64,000 nucleotides of DNA from Escherichia coli (GTDB lineage Bacteria > Pseudomonadota > Gammaproteobacteria > Enterobacterales > Enterobacteriaceae). A program made the position numbers. The DNA is taken from NCBI RefSeq assembly GCF_048403405.1, contig NZ_CP183129.1; one strand, given 5' to 3'. The first letter of the stretch is position 1. The number at the start of each line of letters is the position of its first letter. Positions 15,001 through 27,000 of this stretch are shown piece by piece.

Positions 15001-18000
15001 AAAATCGGCATTAAGCAGGCGACAATTTCCAATTTCGAAAACAACCCTGACAATACCACGCTGACGACATTTTTTAAGATTTTACAGTCGCTTGAACTCT
15101 CAATGACGCTATGCGACACGAAAAATGCCTCGCCAGAATCAACAGAACAGCAAGATCTGGAGTGGTAATGCCTAAACTTGTCACTTGGATGAACAACCAG
15201 CGGGTAGGCGAGTTAACGAAGTTAGCCAATGGCGCGCACACCTTTAAGTATGCACCGGAGTGGTTAGCCAACCGTTATGCCAGACCGTTATCACTTTCGC
15301 TGCCATTGCAGAGGGGGAATATCACCTCTGATGCTGTATTTAACTTCTTCGATAACCTGCTACCCGATAGCCCGATTGTACGTGACCGGATCGTTAAACG
15401 TTATCATGCTAAATCCAGACAACCGTTTGATTTATTGTCAGAAATAGGGCGAGATAGCGTTGGTGCCGTAACGTTATTACCCGAAAATGAAACCATAACG
15501 CGCCCGATAATGGCATGGGAACAGCTCACTGAAGCCAGGCTTGAAGAAGTATTAACGGCTTATAAAGCAGATATCCCTCTGGGCATGATTAGAGAAGAAA
15601 ATGACTTTCGCATCTCGGTTGCTGGCGCGCAGGAGAAGACAGCGCTGCTCAGAATAGGCAATGACTGGTGCATTCCGAAAGGAATAACGCCGACGACGCA
15701 CATCATTAAATTACCGATTGGCGAAATCAGGCAGCCCAATGCGACGCTCGATCTCAGCCAAAGCGTTGATAATGAGTATTACTGTCTGCTGCTGGCGAAA
15801 GAACTTGGGTTGAATGTGCCGGACGCAGAAATCATTAAAGCGGGAAATGTGCGCGCGTTAGCGGTCGAACGTTTTGACAGGCGTTGGAATGCTGAGCGAA
15901 CGGTTTTACTTCGCTTGCCACAGGAGGATATGTGTCAGACATTCGGTTTACCTTCATCGGTGAAATATGAATCAGATGGAGGCCCAGGCATCGCGCGGAT
16001 CATGGCTTTTTTGATGGGGTCCAGCGAGGCGCTGAAAGATCGCTATGATTTTATGAAGTTTCAGGTGTTCCAGTGGTTGATTGGCGCAACGGATGGCCAT
16101 GCAAAAAACTTCTCCGTATTTATTCAGGCTGGCGGCAGTTATCGACTCACGCCATTTTACGACATCATTTCAGCATTTCCGGTATTGGGTGGCGCAGGAA
16201 TACACATCAGCGATCTCAAACTAGCAATGGGGCTTAACGCATCCAAAGGCAAAAAAACGGCAATCGATAAAATTTATCCGCGACATTTTCTGGCGACAGC
16301 AAAGGTGCTGAAATTTCCGGAAGTGCAGATGCATGAAATCCTGAGTGACTTTGCCAGAATGATTCCGGCAGCACTGGATAACGTGAAGACTTCATTACCG
16401 ACAGATTTTCCGGAGAACGTGGTGACGGCAGTTGAAACCAATGTGTTGAGGTTGCACGGCCGGTTAAGCCGAGAATACGGTATTAAGTAAGATATGGGGT
16501 TTTGGTCGTTGTTAATGAGCAGGACAATCATGACCGCCAACGACTGGATTCTCCCTTGGTTTATGTTGGTGCGCATAATGTATATTATGTTAAATGTGGT
16601 GGGTTTGTTCTTAAGTTCATGTGTTCCGCTCTTTCAGTAGCTTAACTGATGAATCAGTCAGCAGCTCTTGCCGTGCAAGCTACGCGGCGGTTCGTACCAG
16701 ATTGGCCACCTCCATCTCCTGGTTCGCTTTCCCCTCCCCCCGGTAAACCTCACCCAACGTTAATTAATGATGTCAGTATGTGGGCGCTATCCTCGTATGT
16801 AAAATCCACTGACGATTACGCCCATCTGTGAAAAAAAACTCACAATGCCATTCGATGCATCTCCATACTGAACGAGGCGTTATCGTCTTTATCGCCCCGT
16901 AGTGGATATCAGAAAATCAATCAGGGCCTTCACTCTTTTCGTTTTACCCGCGTTTTTGGGGTAATAGAGATACACTGGCGGGTAGGTTTTCCAGTAGCTC
17001 TCCATCACCGGAATAAAACGCTCCCTGTCCGGCTGTAACTGCCAGACAGGCTCAAACTTTCTAACTGTATACCCGGATATTGCTGACAGAATTCTGCCAT
17101 CGCAGGCTTAAGAATTAACAGGTAGGCAAAACGCGAGAGCGTAATTCGCACCATCCCAGAGGGCTCCTGATGCTGGTCGCGAATGCTTTCAAGTGAGTTT
17201 TCCAGCGACTCCACCGCCGCAGCGGTCTGTTCCAGCAATAATTGACCGGTTTCCGTCAGCTCTATACGGCGGGTCGTACGCACAAAAAGCGGATGGCCGA
17301 TATACTCTTCCAGCAGCTTTAGTGCATTGCTGACGGAGGGAGGCGTAATTTCCAGTTTCCTTGCGGCTGCCGAAATATTGCCCTCCCGCGCAATGCTCTG
17401 GAAGATGCGAATCTGGTTATAAAGAGCGTTATTCATAATGTTTTCCTAAGCAATTCTCGCCTGATTATTAAGTACAGTCTAAAAATGCTTAAGTCAATGA
17501 CCCTCTAATCTTCCTGAAATACGCCTCTTATACTTTAGTCTCTTTCTACTACGACCTGAGTTCAGGAGACTATGATGCGAATTTTATGTCTGGATATCCC
17601 TGCCCCTGGAGCATCGCTGGAGAAATATGCTCCGCACCTCAACGCTGAAGCGCTGCACGCCTGGGGATTGTATAAATCAGGCTTCATCCGCGACATCTAC
17701 TTCCGTCAGGACAGACCTGGCGTCGCTATTTTTCTTGAATGTGACTCTGTCGATGAAGCGATGAACGTTATGGCCGAATTCCCGTTGGCAAAAGCAGGCT
17801 TACTAAGCTTCGAGTGTATACCGCTTGGCTCCTTTATTAACTGGGAAAATCTCTTCGCCGATGAATTTAAAAATAAAGAGTGAGGACCGATATGAAACCT
17901 GCATATAAACCAGTGCTATGTGTCGTTTCCAGCCATCCGATTAAAGGCGCATCCGGTGTACCAACCGGTTTTTTCCTGGCCGAGCTGACTCATCCGCTGA

Positions 18001-24000: not shown

Positions 24001-27000
24001 CCCTCAAACCCAGAATAGTTAAATGGAATTTGAGTGATGCGAAGCGATTTTCCAGTCGTCGTTATTACTTCAGGGTTCCAGAACATAAAGCCTCTCCTCT
24101 TTCATGATTGGCCTGTGCATACCGGATATAGGCTGGCTGGTATGCAGGTTTGCCGTTTGCCGCATCTTCCCTGCGTTGAAGAGTCAGGCTGGCAAACCGC
24201 GTGCAAATGAACACCCCCACTTTCCATCAACACTTCAGACAGCTTGCGGGAATGAGTCCACTCCGGTATCAGAAATGGCTACGCCTCAATGAAGCCAGGC
24301 GACTGATGCTGAATGAACATTACGATGTCACCACTGCAGCCTATGCTGTCGGTTTCGAAAGCTTATCCCATTTCAGTCGGGAATATTCGCGGATGTTTGG
24401 AGAGTCACCTAAGAGAGATATTACCAGGTTAAGAAAGTCTGTCGGTCAGCTTTAATAAACCCTGCACTTATCTGTTTAAAGCAATTCCGTGTTAGTTACA
24501 CCAGGCAAACATTAACTATGGCTAATGATTTATAGCCATATAAACCATTGGTCGCTCTTGACCTTTCCTGACACTTCCCTTGTTCGCAATAATATTCTGT
24601 TTAGTCGCTGTTTATAAATAACATGCATAATGAAATCGTAATGTTATTTAGCGACATAAAATGTCTTTGCAAATACTCTCTACAACAAGTGCTGCAATAA
24701 ACTTGTTGAGATTAGGTGTCCTTGTAATTTAAAGATATTATCGTTCTTCGTGAAGTGTAATAACCCTGGAAACTATATTCTCAGGGCAATATCCCATCAA
24801 GAATGATTCTTGTTTTATAAGCAATAACAGAATGACTTAATTGTTAACTTTCTTTATTCAGCTACTTAAATATAAATTTTGGAGAATTATGAAACTCAAA
24901 CATGTCGGTATGATTGTCGTTTCTGTGTTGGCGATGTCGTCTGCTGCGGTAAGCGCAGCCGAGGGTGATGAATCAGTAACGACCACTGTTAATGGCGGTG
25001 TTATTCATTTTAAAGGTGAAGTGGTAAATGCCGCTTGTGCGATTGATTCAGAATCAATGAACCAAACGGTTGAGCTGGGTCAGGTCCGTTCTTCTCGTCT
25101 GGCTAAAGCGGGTGACCTCAGCTCCGCCGTTGGCTTCAATATCAAGCTGAATGATTGTGATACCAATGTTTCCAGTAATGCAGCTGTTGCATTCCTGGGT
25201 ACTACTGTCACCAGTAATGACGACACATTAGCGCTGCAGAGTTCAGCGGCAGGCTCTGCCCAAAATGTCGGTATTCAAATTTTGGACCGTACGGGGGAGG
25301 TATTAATACTTGATGGTGCCACTTTTAGCGCTAAAACTGACTTGATTGATGGCACGAATATATTGCCGTTCCAGGCTCGATATATTGCTCTCGGGCAGTC
25401 AGTAGCTGGTACTGCAAACGCAGATGCGACCTTCAAAGTTCAATATCTATAATTCAATCTTAAGGTGGCTATACGTCATCTGAAATTGAAACAGGGTGTG
25501 TGTGGCATGGCTACGCACACCCTAGCAACTCAGAAATGTGAATCTCATTATTAATGAGGAGTGGTTTGTATTTGGAGCGCTATGAAAAATCACATAATAT
25601 CTAAACGATCAATAAACAACAGTAGTTAAATTTACTGTTATTTAAAAAATTTACTTTGTAGCAAGGTTTTCCTATTAAAAGAGAACCAACATTTATTTCA
25701 AACGCATTAAGTCTGGAAACCCGGCGACTCGCCAATGTATTAGCAACATTTACCGATTGTCTGATGTAACGGTTTCCCCGCTTATCCTCTTAACACATGG
25801 AGAATGCATCAGATGCAAACTACGCGTACCCTCTACTCTATTTCCTTTATGGCGACAGTGTTACTTTTATTGCTCTTTGCTTGCCATAGCACCATTGCCA
25901 ACGCAGCTGTCGCACTGGGTGCGACGCGGGTAATTTATCCGGCAAACCAGAAACAGGTTTTATTGCCTGTCACGAATAATGATCCTGCCAGTGTCTATCT
26001 CATTCAGTCATGGATAGAAAATGCAGGTGACCAAAAAGACACCCAGTTTGTCATTACCCCACCGCTTTTTTCCATGCAAGGTAAAAAAGAGAATACGCTG
26101 CGGATAATCAACGCCACTAATCATCAGTTACCAGGCGACCGTGAAAGCCTGTTCTGGGTTAATGTTAAAGCTATTCCTGCTATGGAAAAAGATCAGAAGA
26201 ATGAGAATACATTACAGCTGGCAATTATTAGCCGCATAAAAATGTTTTATCGCCCCACGAACCTGGCAATGGCACCTGAAGAAGCGCCTGCAATGCTTCG
26301 GTTTCGTCGCAGCGGCAGCAAACTCACTCTTATTAATCCAACGCCCTACTTCATTACCGTAACAAATATGAAAGCAGGAAATAGCAATCTCCCAAACACC
26401 ATGGTGCCGCCAAAAGGTGAAGTATCGGTGGATATCCCGCATGCTGCAACCGGGGATATCAGTTTTCAGACGATCAATGATTACGGTGCATTAACTCCGC
26501 GTATTAAGGCAACCATGCAATAAGCCAGTGACCTAATTAATAATAAACTCAATCGGAATTAAAAATGACAGCCTTTCATGCCGCATTTAAGGCATATCGT
26601 ATGCATCAGGTGTTAATACTGCCTCGCTTTGTACGGCTTACCTTTGCCCTTGGCTTAGCAACTGCGGTTTTTCCCGTTGACGCAGAGTATTATTTTAATC
26701 CACGGTTTTTAAGCAATGATCTTGCTGAATCTGTCGATTTATCCGCCTTTACTAAGGGACGCGAGGCACCACCTGGTACATATCGGGTCGACATTTATTT
26801 GAACGACGAATTTATGACTAGTCGGGATATTACTTTTATTGCAGATGATAATAACGCAGATCTCATCCCATGCCTGAGTACAGATCTTCTTGTCAGTCTT
26901 GGCATAAAAAAATCAGCGTTATTAGACAATAAAGAACATTTGGCAGAAAAACATGTGCCGGACAACAGCGCATGCACACCACTTCAGGATCGTTTGGCCG

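What the first reader, a model, noticed from the sequence alone, without database searches (positions are those of the whole stretch)
17440..24460. Accessory block of small redox/detoxification enzymes between hipBA and the fimbrial operon, bounded by decayed regulators
Between the LysR remnant and the AraC remnant lie eight units in one orientation: a small possibly MLI-like protein, a DJ-1/PfpI protein, two aldo/keto reductases, a frameshifted amidohydrolase-2 gene, a flavodoxin-like NAD(P)H quinone oxidoreductase, a secreted tandem-ABM protein and a secreted tandem-CMD protein. From memory, K-12 has only yneL and a truncated ydeT at this position, so this block and the 5' half of the fimbrial operon appear to be present here and missing there. 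The composition suggests a quinone/electrophile or aromatic-aldehyde detoxification module rather than a catabolic pathway, and all three linked regulator or enzyme genes at its edges are pseudogenised, which raises the question of how it is now controlled. No integrase or transposase is present.
Basis: partly seen in the sequence, partly recalled or inferred. Interest (0 to 1): 0.7.

Follow-up and report, generated by a model that had tools for sequence, protein, structure and literature searches.

The report
Accessory LysR-controlled oxidoreductase operon, decaying
This is a 7.4-kb horizontally acquired gene block of small redox and detoxification-type enzymes, carried by about 8% of complete E. 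coli genomes between hipBA and the F9 (fml) fimbrial genes. It is real and absent from K-12, but it is an ordinary, partly decayed accessory operon whose regulator is broken only in this strain.

Summary
Eight same-strand units lie between a LysR remnant and an AraC remnant, and K-12 lacks them and the 5' half of the fml operon. Pfam supports DJ-1_PfpI, Aldo_ket_red x2, Amidohydro_2, Flavodoxin_2, ABM x2 and CMD x2. The 102-aa protein has a muconolactone-isomerase/YCII-like fold.

Corrections:
- The block is window 16597-24017, includes the LysR gene, and is flanked by an 8-bp direct repeat, GTTAAATG.
- The LysR defect is a private 352-bp deletion. The near-identical strain 4621 and the best-ranked of 483 other carriers have an intact 299-aa gene.
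- The AraC remnant (yneL) is backbone DNA also present in block-less strains, so it is not a regulator of the block.
- The amidohydrolase lost 356 bp plus 2 bp in every carrier listed, which points to one origin in E. coli.

The same LysR-headed operon, more complete, occurs at about 88-92% nucleotide identity in Rahnella, Pantoea and Enterobacter (including a 214-kb E. mori plasmid). Similar gene sets occur in Duganella and Archangium.

Most likely function (inferred, untested): a LysR-activated module against quinones, hydroquinones and reactive carbonyls, with cytoplasmic reductases and two periplasmic cofactor-free enzymes. This is a new member of a known kind, of low to moderate interest.

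The parts
16589..16596 (.). Left copy of the 8-bp direct repeat GTTAAATG. It is the last backbone sequence shared with block-less E. coli.
   Evidence: K-12, BroCaecum-55 and O121 carry a single copy that joins 16596 to 24018+. Every configuration examined diverges right after GTTAAAT.
16597..24017 (.). The accessory block. It is 7421 bp here and about 7.77 kb where LysR is intact. GC is 49.7%, against 47.5% in the flanks.
16889..17436 (-). LysR-family regulator gene, divergent from the operon, broken by a private 352-bp deletion. The junction is at about 17057 and removes nt 380-731 of 900. The remaining ORF, 17005-17436, encodes 126 native residues (the HTH is intact) plus a 17-residue frameshifted tail.
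17463..17534 (+). Conserved regulatory stretch. A 37-bp near-invariant segment, GATTATTAAGTACAGTCTAAAAATGCTTAAGTCAATG (17463-17499), contains TTAAG-N15-CTTAA. It is followed by conserved CTAATCTT and a -10-like TATACT (17529-17534) with no good -35. This is a candidate LysR site and activator-dependent promoter.
   Evidence: (alignment of the window and six loci from five other genera). The function is inferred.
17575..17883 (+). 102-aa cytoplasmic protein from a distant branch of the muconolactone isomerase/YCII dimeric alpha+beta-barrel group. It has no Pfam or NCBIfam hit of its own. RefSeq calls many orthologues 'superoxide dismutase', a name no result here supports.
17892..18581 (+). DJ-1/PfpI protein of the short Hsp31/Glx3-like type. 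It carries the AVCHGPAAL nucleophile motif.
   Evidence: 4p5p 1.9e-48; yeast YDR533c/Hsp31 about 1e-28; Candida glyoxalase III 1.4e-27.
18655..19602 (+). Aldo/keto reductase 1 (315 aa).
   Evidence: IolS/AKR11-like.
19705..20381 (+). Amidohydrolase_2 pseudogene. A 356-bp deletion follows 19837 and a 2-bp deletion lies at 20188. The intact 344-aa orthologue is closest to non-oxidative hydroxybenzoate decarboxylases.
   Evidence: 3nur 7e-73; LigW 1e-47; 2,3-DHBA and gamma-resorcylate decarboxylases about 1e-43 to 1e-44.
20532..21104 (+). Flavodoxin_2 NAD(P)H quinone-reductase-type protein (190 aa).
   Evidence: KefF 1.4e-31; NQO1 about 5e-16; MdaB 1e-15.
21107..22126 (+). Aldo/keto reductase 2 (339 aa).
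22242..22967 (+). Tandem-ABM protein with an N-terminal Sec-type signal peptide (MKKTFMLLICMLISSPVFA|TKP).
   Evidence: the tandem structures 3mcs and 3f44 align from residues 28 and 30; signal peptides are conserved in Gram-negative orthologues and absent in the Streptococcus homologues.
22983..23786 (+). Tandem-CMD protein (PcaC-like, no cysteines) with a signal peptide (MKSVLAAAAMSLVISDFANA|EE).
   Evidence: 4g9q 1.4e-73; the Archangium homologue has a lipoprotein-type signal.
23878..23932 (+). Strong hairpin with 13-bp perfect arms at 23886-23898 and 23908-23920. It is the probable end of the operon.
   Evidence: -23.7 kcal/mol, z = -5.6; conserved in E. sichuanensis.
24018..24025 (.). Right copy of GTTAAATG. 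Homology between the E. coli block and Enterobacter sichuanensis stops exactly here.
24128..24187 (-). 20-codon fragment of an alpha/beta-hydrolase gene. It is backbone junk, not part of the block.
24201..24455 (+). AraC-family HTH remnant (yneL / ECs2114 equivalent). It is backbone sequence, present with or without the block.

Best explanation
The region is a horizontally acquired, LysR-headed operon lodged in the hypervariable spacer between hipA and the F9/fml fimbrial operon.

Shown:
- It is one discrete 7.4-kb segment flanked by GTTAAATG.
- It entered E. coli once, already reduced or reduced soon after. Every E. coli carrier listed among 477 matching genomes shares the 356-bp amidohydrolase deletion, and none of the 477 holds the DUF1330 and second flavodoxin-like genes that relatives keep.
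- Its closest relatives are operons in other Enterobacterales. dS is only 0.2-0.6 against Rahnella and Pantoea, but 2.3-3.4 or incalculable against Serratia. One copy sits on a 214-kb Enterobacter mori plasmid.
- Its genes evolve under purifying selection between genera (dN/dS 0.03-0.29).

Inferred mechanism:
- The divergent LysR protein binds the conserved TTAAG-N15-CTTAA segment. With a co-inducer, it activates a promoter that has a good -10 and no -35.
- The cytoplasmic products are an Hsp31/Glx3-like DJ-1 protein, two aldo/keto reductases, a KefF/NQO1/MdaB-like flavoprotein and an MLI/YCII-like isomerase or tautomerase. They would reduce or convert quinones, hydroquinone tautomers and reactive carbonyls.
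- The two exported, cofactor-independent proteins (tandem ABM, tandem CMD) would act on the same class of compounds in the periplasm.
- In complete versions, an ortho-hydroxybenzoate-decarboxylase-type amidohydrolase would feed phenolic acids into the system. E. coli has lost that step.
- In this particular strain the regulator has lost its effector-binding domain, so the operon is probably no longer inducible.
For: Anatomy and families.

Limits and repeat.

Prevalence: 427 of 5426 genomes with a near-complete block. 477 genomes match the amidohydrolase-to-AKR2 stretch; every listed match spans about 2.54 kb against 2.9 kb of query, and none of the 477 covers the DUF1330 and second flavodoxin-like genes.

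Intact LysR elsewhere, private deletion here.

Whole-operon synteny with divergent LysR in Pantoea, Rahnella, Pectobacterium, Serratia and Raoultella. Plasmid copy with an intact 344-aa amidohydrolase.

Core association of tandem ABM across 26 loci: with LysR in 16, with Flavodoxin_2 in 19 and with an AKR in 16. These loci include Neisseria, Eikenella and Pasteurellaceae.

Similar gene sets around the small protein: Archangium has tandem CMD, LysR, AKR x2, tandem ABM and DUF1330. Duganella has LysR, DLH, DJ-1, Amidohydro_2 and ABM.

dN/dS and dS.

Conserved intergenic motif and -10.

Signal peptides conserved.

Closest solved relatives.

MdaB-type flavoproteins protect against quinone stress: PMC8765430.
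Against: No expression, binding or enzyme data exist for any gene of the block. Four literature searches found no description of the block or of its gene combination.

Every enzyme family here is functionally broad, so the substrate class is a guess from co-occurrence. AKR, DJ-1 and flavodoxin-like genes cluster with LysR genes in many unrelated contexts.

MLI-, CMD- and decarboxylase-type families would equally fit a catabolic side branch for an aromatic compound.

No canonical T-N11-A dyad was demonstrated. The promoter scan did not flag the site.

The direction of the presence/absence polymorphism (insertion or deletion) is not settled.
Confidence: 0.6

Rival explanations
1. The block is a remnant of a dedicated catabolic or conversion pathway for one plant-derived hydroxy-aromatic acid. 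The decarboxylase would act first, followed by ABM oxygenation, MLI- and CMD-type lactone chemistry, and AKR reduction. The E. coli copy would be non-functional because the entry enzyme is destroyed.
For: - The intact amidohydrolase is closest to LigW and to 2,3-dihydroxybenzoate, gamma-resorcylate and salicylate decarboxylases.
- MLI-like and PcaC-like proteins are the two lactone-converting families of the beta-ketoadipate pathway (pathway knowledge from memory).
- The richest copies are in plant-associated genera: Pantoea, Rahnella, Pectobacterium, Serratia and Erwinia.
- The Duganella version adds a dienelactone-hydrolase-type gene.
Against: - No locus examined has a ring-cleavage dioxygenase, cycloisomerase, CoA-transferase or thiolase next to the operon.
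- The amidohydrolase is dispensable. It is absent in Pectobacterium and in all core versions.
- The CMD and ABM proteins are exported while the MLI-like protein is cytoplasmic, so they cannot act consecutively on one soluble intermediate.
- The most constant partners of tandem ABM are a quinone-reductase-type flavoprotein and an AKR.
Confidence: 0.2
2. In E. coli, and certainly in this strain, the block is functionless cargo on its way out. On this view it is a relic preserved by drift in a recombination and deletion hot spot, and its gene content says nothing about current physiology.
For: - Lesions have accumulated relative to fuller copies: the 356+2-bp amidohydrolase deletions, loss of DUF1330 and the second flavodoxin-like gene, loss of about 5.5 kb upstream of LysR relative to the plasmid copy, and here the 352-bp LysR deletion.
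- Some carriers have IS or foreign genes inside the block (H3 and H4).
- Raoultella and the E. mori chromosome hold heavily decayed copies.
- The surrounding spacer is a patchwork of gene fragments.
Against: - The seven remaining ORFs are intact here and in strain 4621, whose RefSeq annotation carries no pseudogene flag on them. The block is kept at 98.8-100% identity in the four carriers listed.
- Between genera the genes are under clear purifying selection.
- The regulator is intact in strain 4621 and in the best-ranked other carriers.
Confidence: 0.15
3. Origin rival. The block was ancestral at this site, and the common block-less state arose by one precise deletion between the two GTTAAATG copies. 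The alternative is that the block was inserted into an empty site.
For: - Both flanks kept by block-less E. coli also flank a decayed copy of the block in the Enterobacter mori chromosome, in the same order and orientation. These are the 75 bp left of the junction and the alpha/beta-hydrolase fragment.
- An 8-bp direct repeat is what a microhomology deletion leaves.
- Divergence among E. coli copies of about 1% is compatible with long residence.
Against: - Homology between the E. coli block and E. sichuanensis ends exactly at GTTAAAT. That is expected if this was the illegitimate joint of an imported fragment anchored in the left element (homology-facilitated illegitimate recombination). Under the deletion model it is a coincidence.
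- dS of 0.2-0.6 to Rahnella and Pantoea shows the copy was not inherited vertically from an enterobacterial ancestor.
- The one-genome-per-species scan returned no locus from any Escherichia species.
- The same junction occurs with two right-flank alleles that are about 15% apart.
Confidence: 0.35

Closest known systems
MdaB-YgiN quinone reductase / quinol monooxygenase pair of E. coli and relatives (Adams & Jia 2005, recalled from memory; MdaB protective role in PMC8765430)
   Same: A flavodoxin-fold NAD(P)H quinone-reductase-type protein is genetically linked to an ABM-fold protein that RefSeq names 'putative quinol monooxygenase'. The link held in 19 of 26 loci. MdaB is among the solved relatives of the flavoprotein.
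   Different: - The flavoprotein is closer to KefF than to MdaB.
- The ABM protein is a tandem fusion with a signal peptide, so the two partners sit in different compartments.
- A LysR regulator, AKRs, DJ-1, MLI-like and CMD proteins are added.
- No activity has been measured.
LysR-type-regulator-controlled divergent detoxification or catabolic operons (LTTR paradigm)
   Same: A divergently transcribed LysR gene is followed by a conserved dyad-containing intergenic segment and a promoter with a -10 but no -35.
   Different: The co-inducer and binding site are unknown. The best NCBIfam match is YafC, far below cut-off (162.8 against 470 bits). In this window the effector domain is deleted.
Beta-ketoadipate pathway enzymes CatC (muconolactone isomerase) and PcaC (4-carboxymuconolactone decarboxylase); ClcF and TftG
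   Same: - The fold of the small protein matches ClcF and MLI at TM 0.66-0.78, and TftG and YciI-like proteins.
- 25 of 57 family members hit Pfam MIase.
- The CMD protein scores 5e-34 on TIGR02425 PcaC.
   Different: - The window protein itself does not reach any Pfam threshold.
- The CMD protein is below the PcaC cut-off (117 against 155.7 bits), duplicated in tandem and exported.
- None of the other pathway genes is present.
Glutathione-independent glyoxalase III / Hsp31 mini-family (yeast Hsp31/YDR533c, Candida Glx3, E. coli HchA)
   Same: It has a DJ-1_PfpI domain, a CHG nucleophile motif, and strong similarity to YDR533c and Glx3.
   Different: It is shorter than HchA and far below the HchA equivalog cut-off (66.6 against 365 bits). 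Activity has not been tested.
Small chromosomal islets acquired by homology-facilitated illegitimate recombination, without integrase
   Same: It has no mobility genes and no tRNA. One flank is homologous between donor-type and recipient sequences, and a 7-8-bp microhomology lies at the other joint.
   Different: The mechanism is inferred from end sequences only. A precise deletion would give the same picture.

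Membership tests
   All matches have i-Evalues from 4.6e-10 to 6.2e-68. ABM and CMD each match twice. Amidohydro_2 covers only model positions 127-289 because of the deletion.
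Muconolactone delta-isomerase (Pfam MIase PF02426) | Match of the window protein to the MIase HMM | tested here: not met
   The window protein has no MIase hit. Its only Pfam hit is YCII at E = 0.34.
Muconolactone delta-isomerase (Pfam MIase PF02426) | Same fold and demonstrable distant homology | tested here: met
   - pLDDT 93.
- ClcF, 5-chloromuconolactone isomerase and MLI at TM 0.66-0.78 and 14-19% identity.
- 25 of 57 homologues hit MIase at E<=0.001 and 9 hit YCII.
Muconolactone delta-isomerase (Pfam MIase PF02426) | Isomerase activity, and a catalytic Glu in helix 1 | not testable with these tools
   Glu at residue 25/26 (depending on which of the two start ATGs is used) is near-invariant in the family. 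Its equivalence to the catalytic Glu27 of ClcF and MLI is recalled from memory and was not aligned here.
LysR-type regulated divergent operon | Full-length LTTR gene (HTH_1 plus LysR_substrate) divergent from the target operon | tested here: not met
   In the window the gene lacks nt 380-731. It is met in strain 4621 and in five other genera.
LysR-type regulated divergent operon | Conserved LTTR binding site (T-N11-A-type dyad) in the intergenic region | tested here: inconclusive
   A 37-bp segment is near-invariant in the window and in six loci from five other genera, and it contains TTAAG-N15-CTTAA. No canonical T-N11-A dyad was identified and there is no binding data.
Integrase- or tRNA-associated genomic island | Integrase or transposase gene, tRNA target, deviating G+C | tested here: not met
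   no such ORF; no tRNA; 49.7% against 47.5% GC. Only an 8-bp direct repeat is present.
Beta-ketoadipate (cat/pca) catabolic cluster | Ring-cleavage dioxygenase, cycloisomerase, enol-lactonase and CoA-transferase/thiolase alongside MLI or PcaC | tested here: not met
   None of these genes is in the window or in any related locus.
MdaB/YgiN-type quinone redox pair | Flavodoxin-fold quinone reductase linked to an ABM quinol monooxygenase | tested here: met
   Met at family and linkage level only.
MdaB/YgiN-type quinone redox pair | Both partners cytoplasmic, single-domain ABM, demonstrated quinone/quinol turnover | tested here: not met
   The ABM protein is tandem and carries a conserved signal peptide. 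Turnover is not testable here.
Glyoxalase III (HchA equivalog NF003168; DJ-1 glyoxalase III TIGR01383) | Score above the curated equivalog cut-off | tested here: not met
   66.6 against 365 bits, and 36.1 against 131 bits. The protein resembles the yeast Hsp31/Glx3 subgroup instead.
4-carboxymuconolactone decarboxylase PcaC (TIGR02425) | Score above the curated cut-off, single-domain cytoplasmic enzyme | tested here: not met
   117.1 against 155.7 bits. The protein is tandem and exported.

The most novel reading that the evidence does not exclude
The block may be the E. coli remnant of a widespread, uncharacterised, LysR-controlled two-compartment system against redox-active aromatics. Periplasmic cofactor-free tandem-ABM and tandem-CMD enzymes would work together with cytoplasmic quinone and carbonyl reductases. 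A new, highly conserved MLI/YCII-like enzyme family would supply a hydroquinone/quinone tautomerase- or dehalogenase-like step. That family has 1381 50%-identity clusters, has no Pfam model of its own, and is mis-named 'superoxide dismutase' in RefSeq. The module recurs in Enterobacterales, Burkholderiales and Myxococcota, and in reduced form in Neisseriaceae and Pasteurellaceae.
Probability: 0.3. Interest if true: 0.5.

Novelty: new member of a known kind. Interest (0 to 1): 0.3.

Why it matters
For E. coli genomics, this fixes the anatomy of a variable spot next to hipBA and the F9 fimbrial operon. The analysis gives exact breakpoints, shows a single origin of the block in E. coli, and shows that the apparent 'orphan' status of the operon is an accident of one clone.

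More generally, the analysis flags a conserved but unstudied gene association: LysR, a quinone-reductase-type flavoprotein, AKRs, exported tandem ABM and CMD proteins, and an MLI/YCII-like small protein. This association is shared by plant-associated, gut and mucosal bacteria. If it is a quinone or phenolic defence, it would be relevant to survival on plants and in inflamed or polyphenol-rich guts.

It also exposes an unsupported 'superoxide dismutase' annotation that is spreading through RefSeq. None of this overturns current understanding.

Tried and rejected
- Terminal inverted repeats or a transposon-like structure. An 8-bp TGGGTTTG match lies near both ends, but shuffles show 8-bp matches between the two end regions are expected by chance, so it was rejected.
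- Promoter and terminator consensus scan. Counts were not above shuffles, and the conserved intergenic promoter was not flagged, so the scan was uninformative.
- Rfam at permissive E-value over 14.5-25.5 kb: nothing.
- tRNA scan: nothing.
- Looking up the truncated 143-aa LysR product in 153 billion gene calls: not on record. The first try used wrong coordinates.
- Literature searches for the gene combination, for yneL/ydeT and for F9/hipA. No description of the block was found. One paper notes only the cryptic AraC-like CDS between hipA and fmlA in O157.
- The Pantoea ananatis 'alt' thiosulfinate-tolerance cluster was considered because of shared family names, but its gene set is different, so it was rejected.
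- My first reading of 24018-24200 as frameshifted AraC sequence was wrong. It contains an alpha/beta-hydrolase fragment on the other strand.
- The phylogroup distribution of carriers could not be obtained with these tools.

Full report
**What is there**

The window is E. coli. Over 48.9 kb it differs from the chromosome of strain 4621 (NZ_CP103479.1, blood isolate) by two SNPs and one 352-bp deletion. RefSeq annotation of that strain gives this order: an ECSE_1600-type autotransporter, hipB, hipA, a LysR gene on the minus strand, nine plus-strand CDS, a partial helix-turn-helix gene, then fimA-like (fmlA), chaperone and usher genes of the F9/fml fimbrial operon, followed by ydeP.

Pfam supports every proposed family: DJ-1_PfpI, Aldo_ket_red twice, Amidohydro_2 (C-terminal 60% of the model only), Flavodoxin_2, two ABM domains in one protein and two CMD domains in one protein. 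NCBIfam gives only sub-threshold similarities: HchA/PfpI, YdjG-type methylglyoxal reductase, KefF/KefG, LsrG and PcaC. The family assignments are therefore safe, but specific functions are not.

**The small protein**

The 102/103-aa first gene has no Pfam or NCBIfam hit of its own. It belongs to a strongly conserved family, with 62-69% identity to proteins of Duganella, Trinickia, Archangium and an acidobacterial MAG. The family has 1381 clusters at 50% identity with E<=1e-3, some of them tandem fusions.

An AlphaFold model is confident (pLDDT 93). Its best PDB matches are ClcF (5-chloromuconolactone isomerase, TM 0.70/0.78), TftG, the YciI-like HI0828 and muconolactone isomerase 1mli (0.66/0.71). 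Of 57 family members scanned singly, 25 hit Pfam MIase and 9 hit YCII at E<=0.001. Nothing found here supports the RefSeq name 'superoxide dismutase' given to many orthologues.

**True limits and the flanking 'decayed regulators'**

Comparison with block-less genomes (K-12 MG1655, BroCaecum-55, an O121 strain) puts the left breakpoint at window 16595/16596 and the right one at 24018. The 8-bp GTTAAATG is present once in block-less strains and at both ends of the block (16589-16596 and 24018-24025). The block therefore includes the LysR gene and 292 bp beyond it.

The LysR gene is 900 bp and intact in strain 4621. In the window, nt 380-731 are missing, leaving the HTH and 17 frameshifted codons. 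A junction query found 483 E. coli genomes. All 30 best-ranked matches are in two pieces spanning about 662-663 bp rather than 311 bp, so none shows the deletion. The 143-aa product is not on record anywhere in the gene-call collection. The lesion is thus private to this clone, or it is an assembly error.

The AraC-type remnant (24201-24455) is not part of the block. It is present in block-less strains, is K-12's yneL, and has been noted in O157 as a cryptic CDS between hipA and fmlA (PMC7766294). Between the block and this remnant lies a 20-codon fragment of an alpha/beta-hydrolase gene on the other strand.

The amidohydrolase carries a 356-bp deletion after 19837 and a 2-bp deletion at 20188, relative to the intact 344-aa genes of Enterobacter mori and Rahnella.

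**Distribution in E. coli**

- 427 of 5426 complete genomes hold at least 80% of the 8.5-kb query.
- 477 match the amidohydrolase-to-AKR2 stretch. Every listed match spans about 2.54 kb against 2.9 kb of query, which is the same deletion. None of the 477 covers the DUF1330 and second NAD(P)H-oxidoreductase genes that lie between AKR2 and ABM in the E. mori plasmid and in Rahnella.
- The E. coli copy therefore has a single origin.
- Some carriers have IS elements or extra genes inside the block (H3 and H4).
- K-12 lacks the block.

**Relatives elsewhere**

A scan of one genome per species with the tandem-ABM protein returned 26 loci. The whole operon with its divergent LysR gene is present in Pantoea deserta, Rahnella rivi, Pectobacterium peruviense (no amidohydrolase), Serratia plymuthica and S. 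inhibens (no AKR2), and in decayed form in Raoultella. Enterobacter sichuanensis has it on a short contig. It is also on 214-kb Enterobacter mori plasmids, embedded among further oxidoreductase genes.

Nucleotide identity to E. coli is 87-92% for Rahnella, Pantoea and Enterobacter. Per-gene dS is 0.2-0.6 and dN/dS is 0.03-0.29. Against Serratia, dS is 2.3-3.4 or not calculable. The low dS to members of other families indicates recent horizontal exchange, and the low dN/dS indicates functional constraint.

Across the 26 loci, tandem ABM is next to a related LysR gene in 16, a Flavodoxin_2 gene in 19 and an AKR in 16. These loci include Neisseria, Eikenella and Pasteurellaceae. The CMD, small-protein, DJ-1 and amidohydrolase genes are additions seen in Enterobacterales.

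Starting from the small protein instead, Archangium has tandem CMD (lipoprotein), LysR, two AKRs, a small CMD, tandem ABM (signal peptide) and DUF1330 around it. Duganella has LysR, a DLH-type hydrolase, DJ-1, Amidohydro_2 and ABM. The association is therefore modular but recurrent across phyla.

**How it probably works**

The steps below are inferred unless a result is cited.

- *Regulation.* The LysR-operon intergenic region contains a 37-bp segment that is nearly invariant in the window and in six loci from five other genera. It holds two TTAAG/CTTAA half-sites 15 bp apart. It is followed by conserved CTAATCTT and a TATACT -10 with no recognisable -35. That is the layout of an activator-dependent LTTR promoter.
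- *Cytoplasmic enzymes.* The DJ-1 protein resembles yeast Hsp31 and Candida glyoxalase III and keeps the CHG nucleophile motif. The flavoprotein resembles KefF, NQO1 and MdaB. The AKRs resemble general-stress and aryl-alcohol-type AKRs.
- *Exported enzymes.* The ABM and CMD proteins carry Sec-type signal peptides that are conserved in Gram-negative orthologues and missing in the Streptococcus homologues. Both folds work without nucleotide cofactors, which suits the periplasm.
- *Lost entry step.* The intact amidohydrolase is closest to non-oxidative ortho-hydroxybenzoate decarboxylases.

Together this fits a defence against redox-active aromatics (quinones, hydroquinones, phenolic acids) and reactive carbonyls. 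It fits a catabolic pathway poorly, because no ring-cleavage, cycloisomerase, lactonase or thiolase gene accompanies the operon in any locus. In this clone the regulator has lost its effector domain, so induction is probably lost. A strong hairpin at 23878-23932 (-23.7 kcal/mol, z = -5.6) probably ends the transcript.

**Origin at this site**

There is no integrase, transposase or tRNA, and G+C is unremarkable. The apparent terminal inverted repeat is within chance expectation.

Two observations bear on the mechanism.

- Homology between the E. coli block and E. sichuanensis runs through the 230-bp non-coding tail and stops exactly at GTTAAAT.
- The E. mori chromosome has a 109-bp sequence spanning the left junction (75 bp of E. 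coli 'backbone' plus 34 bp of block interior). It is followed by a 108-bp ABM fragment, about 8 kb of unrelated large ORFs and the full alpha/beta-hydrolase gene, a fragment of which lies right of the block in E. coli.

I favour import from an Enterobacter-like donor, anchored by homology in the left element and closed by a 7-8-bp microhomology on the right (homology-facilitated illegitimate recombination). A precise deletion of an older resident block would leave the same repeat and cannot be excluded. It needs a phylogenetic test.

The spacer is a hot spot in any case. Four other configurations all share the left flank up to GTTAAAT and then diverge.

**Comparison with known systems, and verdict**

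In functional terms, the nearest analogue is the MdaB/YgiN-type pairing of a quinone reductase with an ABM 'quinol monooxygenase' under a stress regulator. The differences are a tandem, exported ABM protein, a LysR regulator and extra enzymes. Membership of the cat/pca pathway, of HchA- or PcaC-equivalog families and of integrase-type islands was tested and not met.

No paper describing the block was found in four searches. It is annotated, without names, in hundreds of RefSeq genomes.

The finding is real. Its most intriguing point, an operon stranded between dead regulators, dissolves on inspection. What remains is an ordinary accessory LysR operon in slow decay, with a modestly interesting uncharacterised module behind it. 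Interest is 0.3.

Noticed in passing
window 17054-17058 (LysR gene), compared with L001 3559-3910: The window equals strain 4621 except for two SNPs (5129, 46058) and a 352-bp deletion inside the LysR gene. None of the best-ranked matches among 483 block-carrying complete genomes shows the deletion (30 listed), and its 143-aa product is not on record. It is either a very recent private mutation or an assembly artefact.
   Followed up: yes
window 16521-16596 and 24018-24200; loci L002, L029-L032: The hipA-fmlA spacer is a patchwork hot spot. At least five configurations share the left flank up to ...TATTATGTTAAAT and then diverge:
- the block
- the K-12/O121 type
- the BroCaecum-55 type, without hipBA
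- the 19AR1321 type, with an SDR oxidoreductase
- the 83972 type, with esterase and LysR remnants
   Followed up: partly
window 24128-24187 (-); L028 18518-19600 (-); L031 4143-4250: A 20-codon fragment of an alpha/beta-hydrolase gene lies between the block and the AraC remnant. Strain 19AR1321 keeps the adjoining 36 codons of the same gene, and Enterobacter mori has the full 360-aa gene.
   Followed up: partly
L028 9628-19600 (Enterobacter mori LMG 25706 chromosome): This is a decayed syntenic copy of the locus. It holds the left-junction element, a 108-bp ABM fragment, then about 8 kb of large ORFs (966, 676, 390 and 160 aa, with the look of a defence island), then the hydrolase gene.
   Followed up: no
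window 16745-16857; L033 2349-2460 and 2461-8000: A 113-bp stretch left of the LysR stop matches the E. mori plasmid 5.5 kb away from its LysR gene. The plasmid keeps three extra AKR genes, a gluconolactonase-type gene and a second LysR gene there, which E. coli lacks. The ancestral cluster was therefore larger.
   Followed up: partly
L039 3501-3930 (E. coli IncF plasmid); L040 3501-3913 (K. pneumoniae IncN/IncR KPC plasmid): Unannotated 410-430-bp scraps of the CMD tail and of the ABM gene (about 90% identity) sit on resistance plasmids. In L040 the scrap lies next to IS1 and IS26. In L039 the only IS seen in the flanks is IS421.
   Followed up: partly
window 17575-17883 and proteins P0010-P0117: RefSeq and UniRef name many orthologues of the 102-aa MLI/YCII-like protein 'superoxide dismutase'. 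No profile, fold or literature result obtained here supports that name. Tandem-fused versions of 212-309 aa also exist (P0121-P0126).
   Followed up: partly
window 24709-27989, compared with L002 4764-4766: K-12 has a second, independent deletion. It removes fmlA, the chaperone gene and the 5' half of the usher (leaving ydeT'). Its ECSE_1600-type autotransporter is frameshifted, whereas the window's copy (9271-14691, 1806 aa) is intact.
   Followed up: yes
window 23878-23932: A strong hairpin with 13-bp perfect arms (-23.7 kcal/mol, z = -5.6) lies after the CMD gene and is conserved in E. sichuanensis. The related motifs AGTTCATG and GTTCATGAAC recur nearby and at the left end of the block (16614).
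   Followed up: partly
L033 18813-24938 (E. mori plasmid, downstream of the operon): The plasmid copy is followed by a further set of oxidoreductase genes: an NADP-dependent oxidoreductase, an SDR, an alkene reductase and a TetR regulator. By gene names, this set is reminiscent of the Pantoea 'alt' thiosulfinate-tolerance cluster.
   Followed up: no
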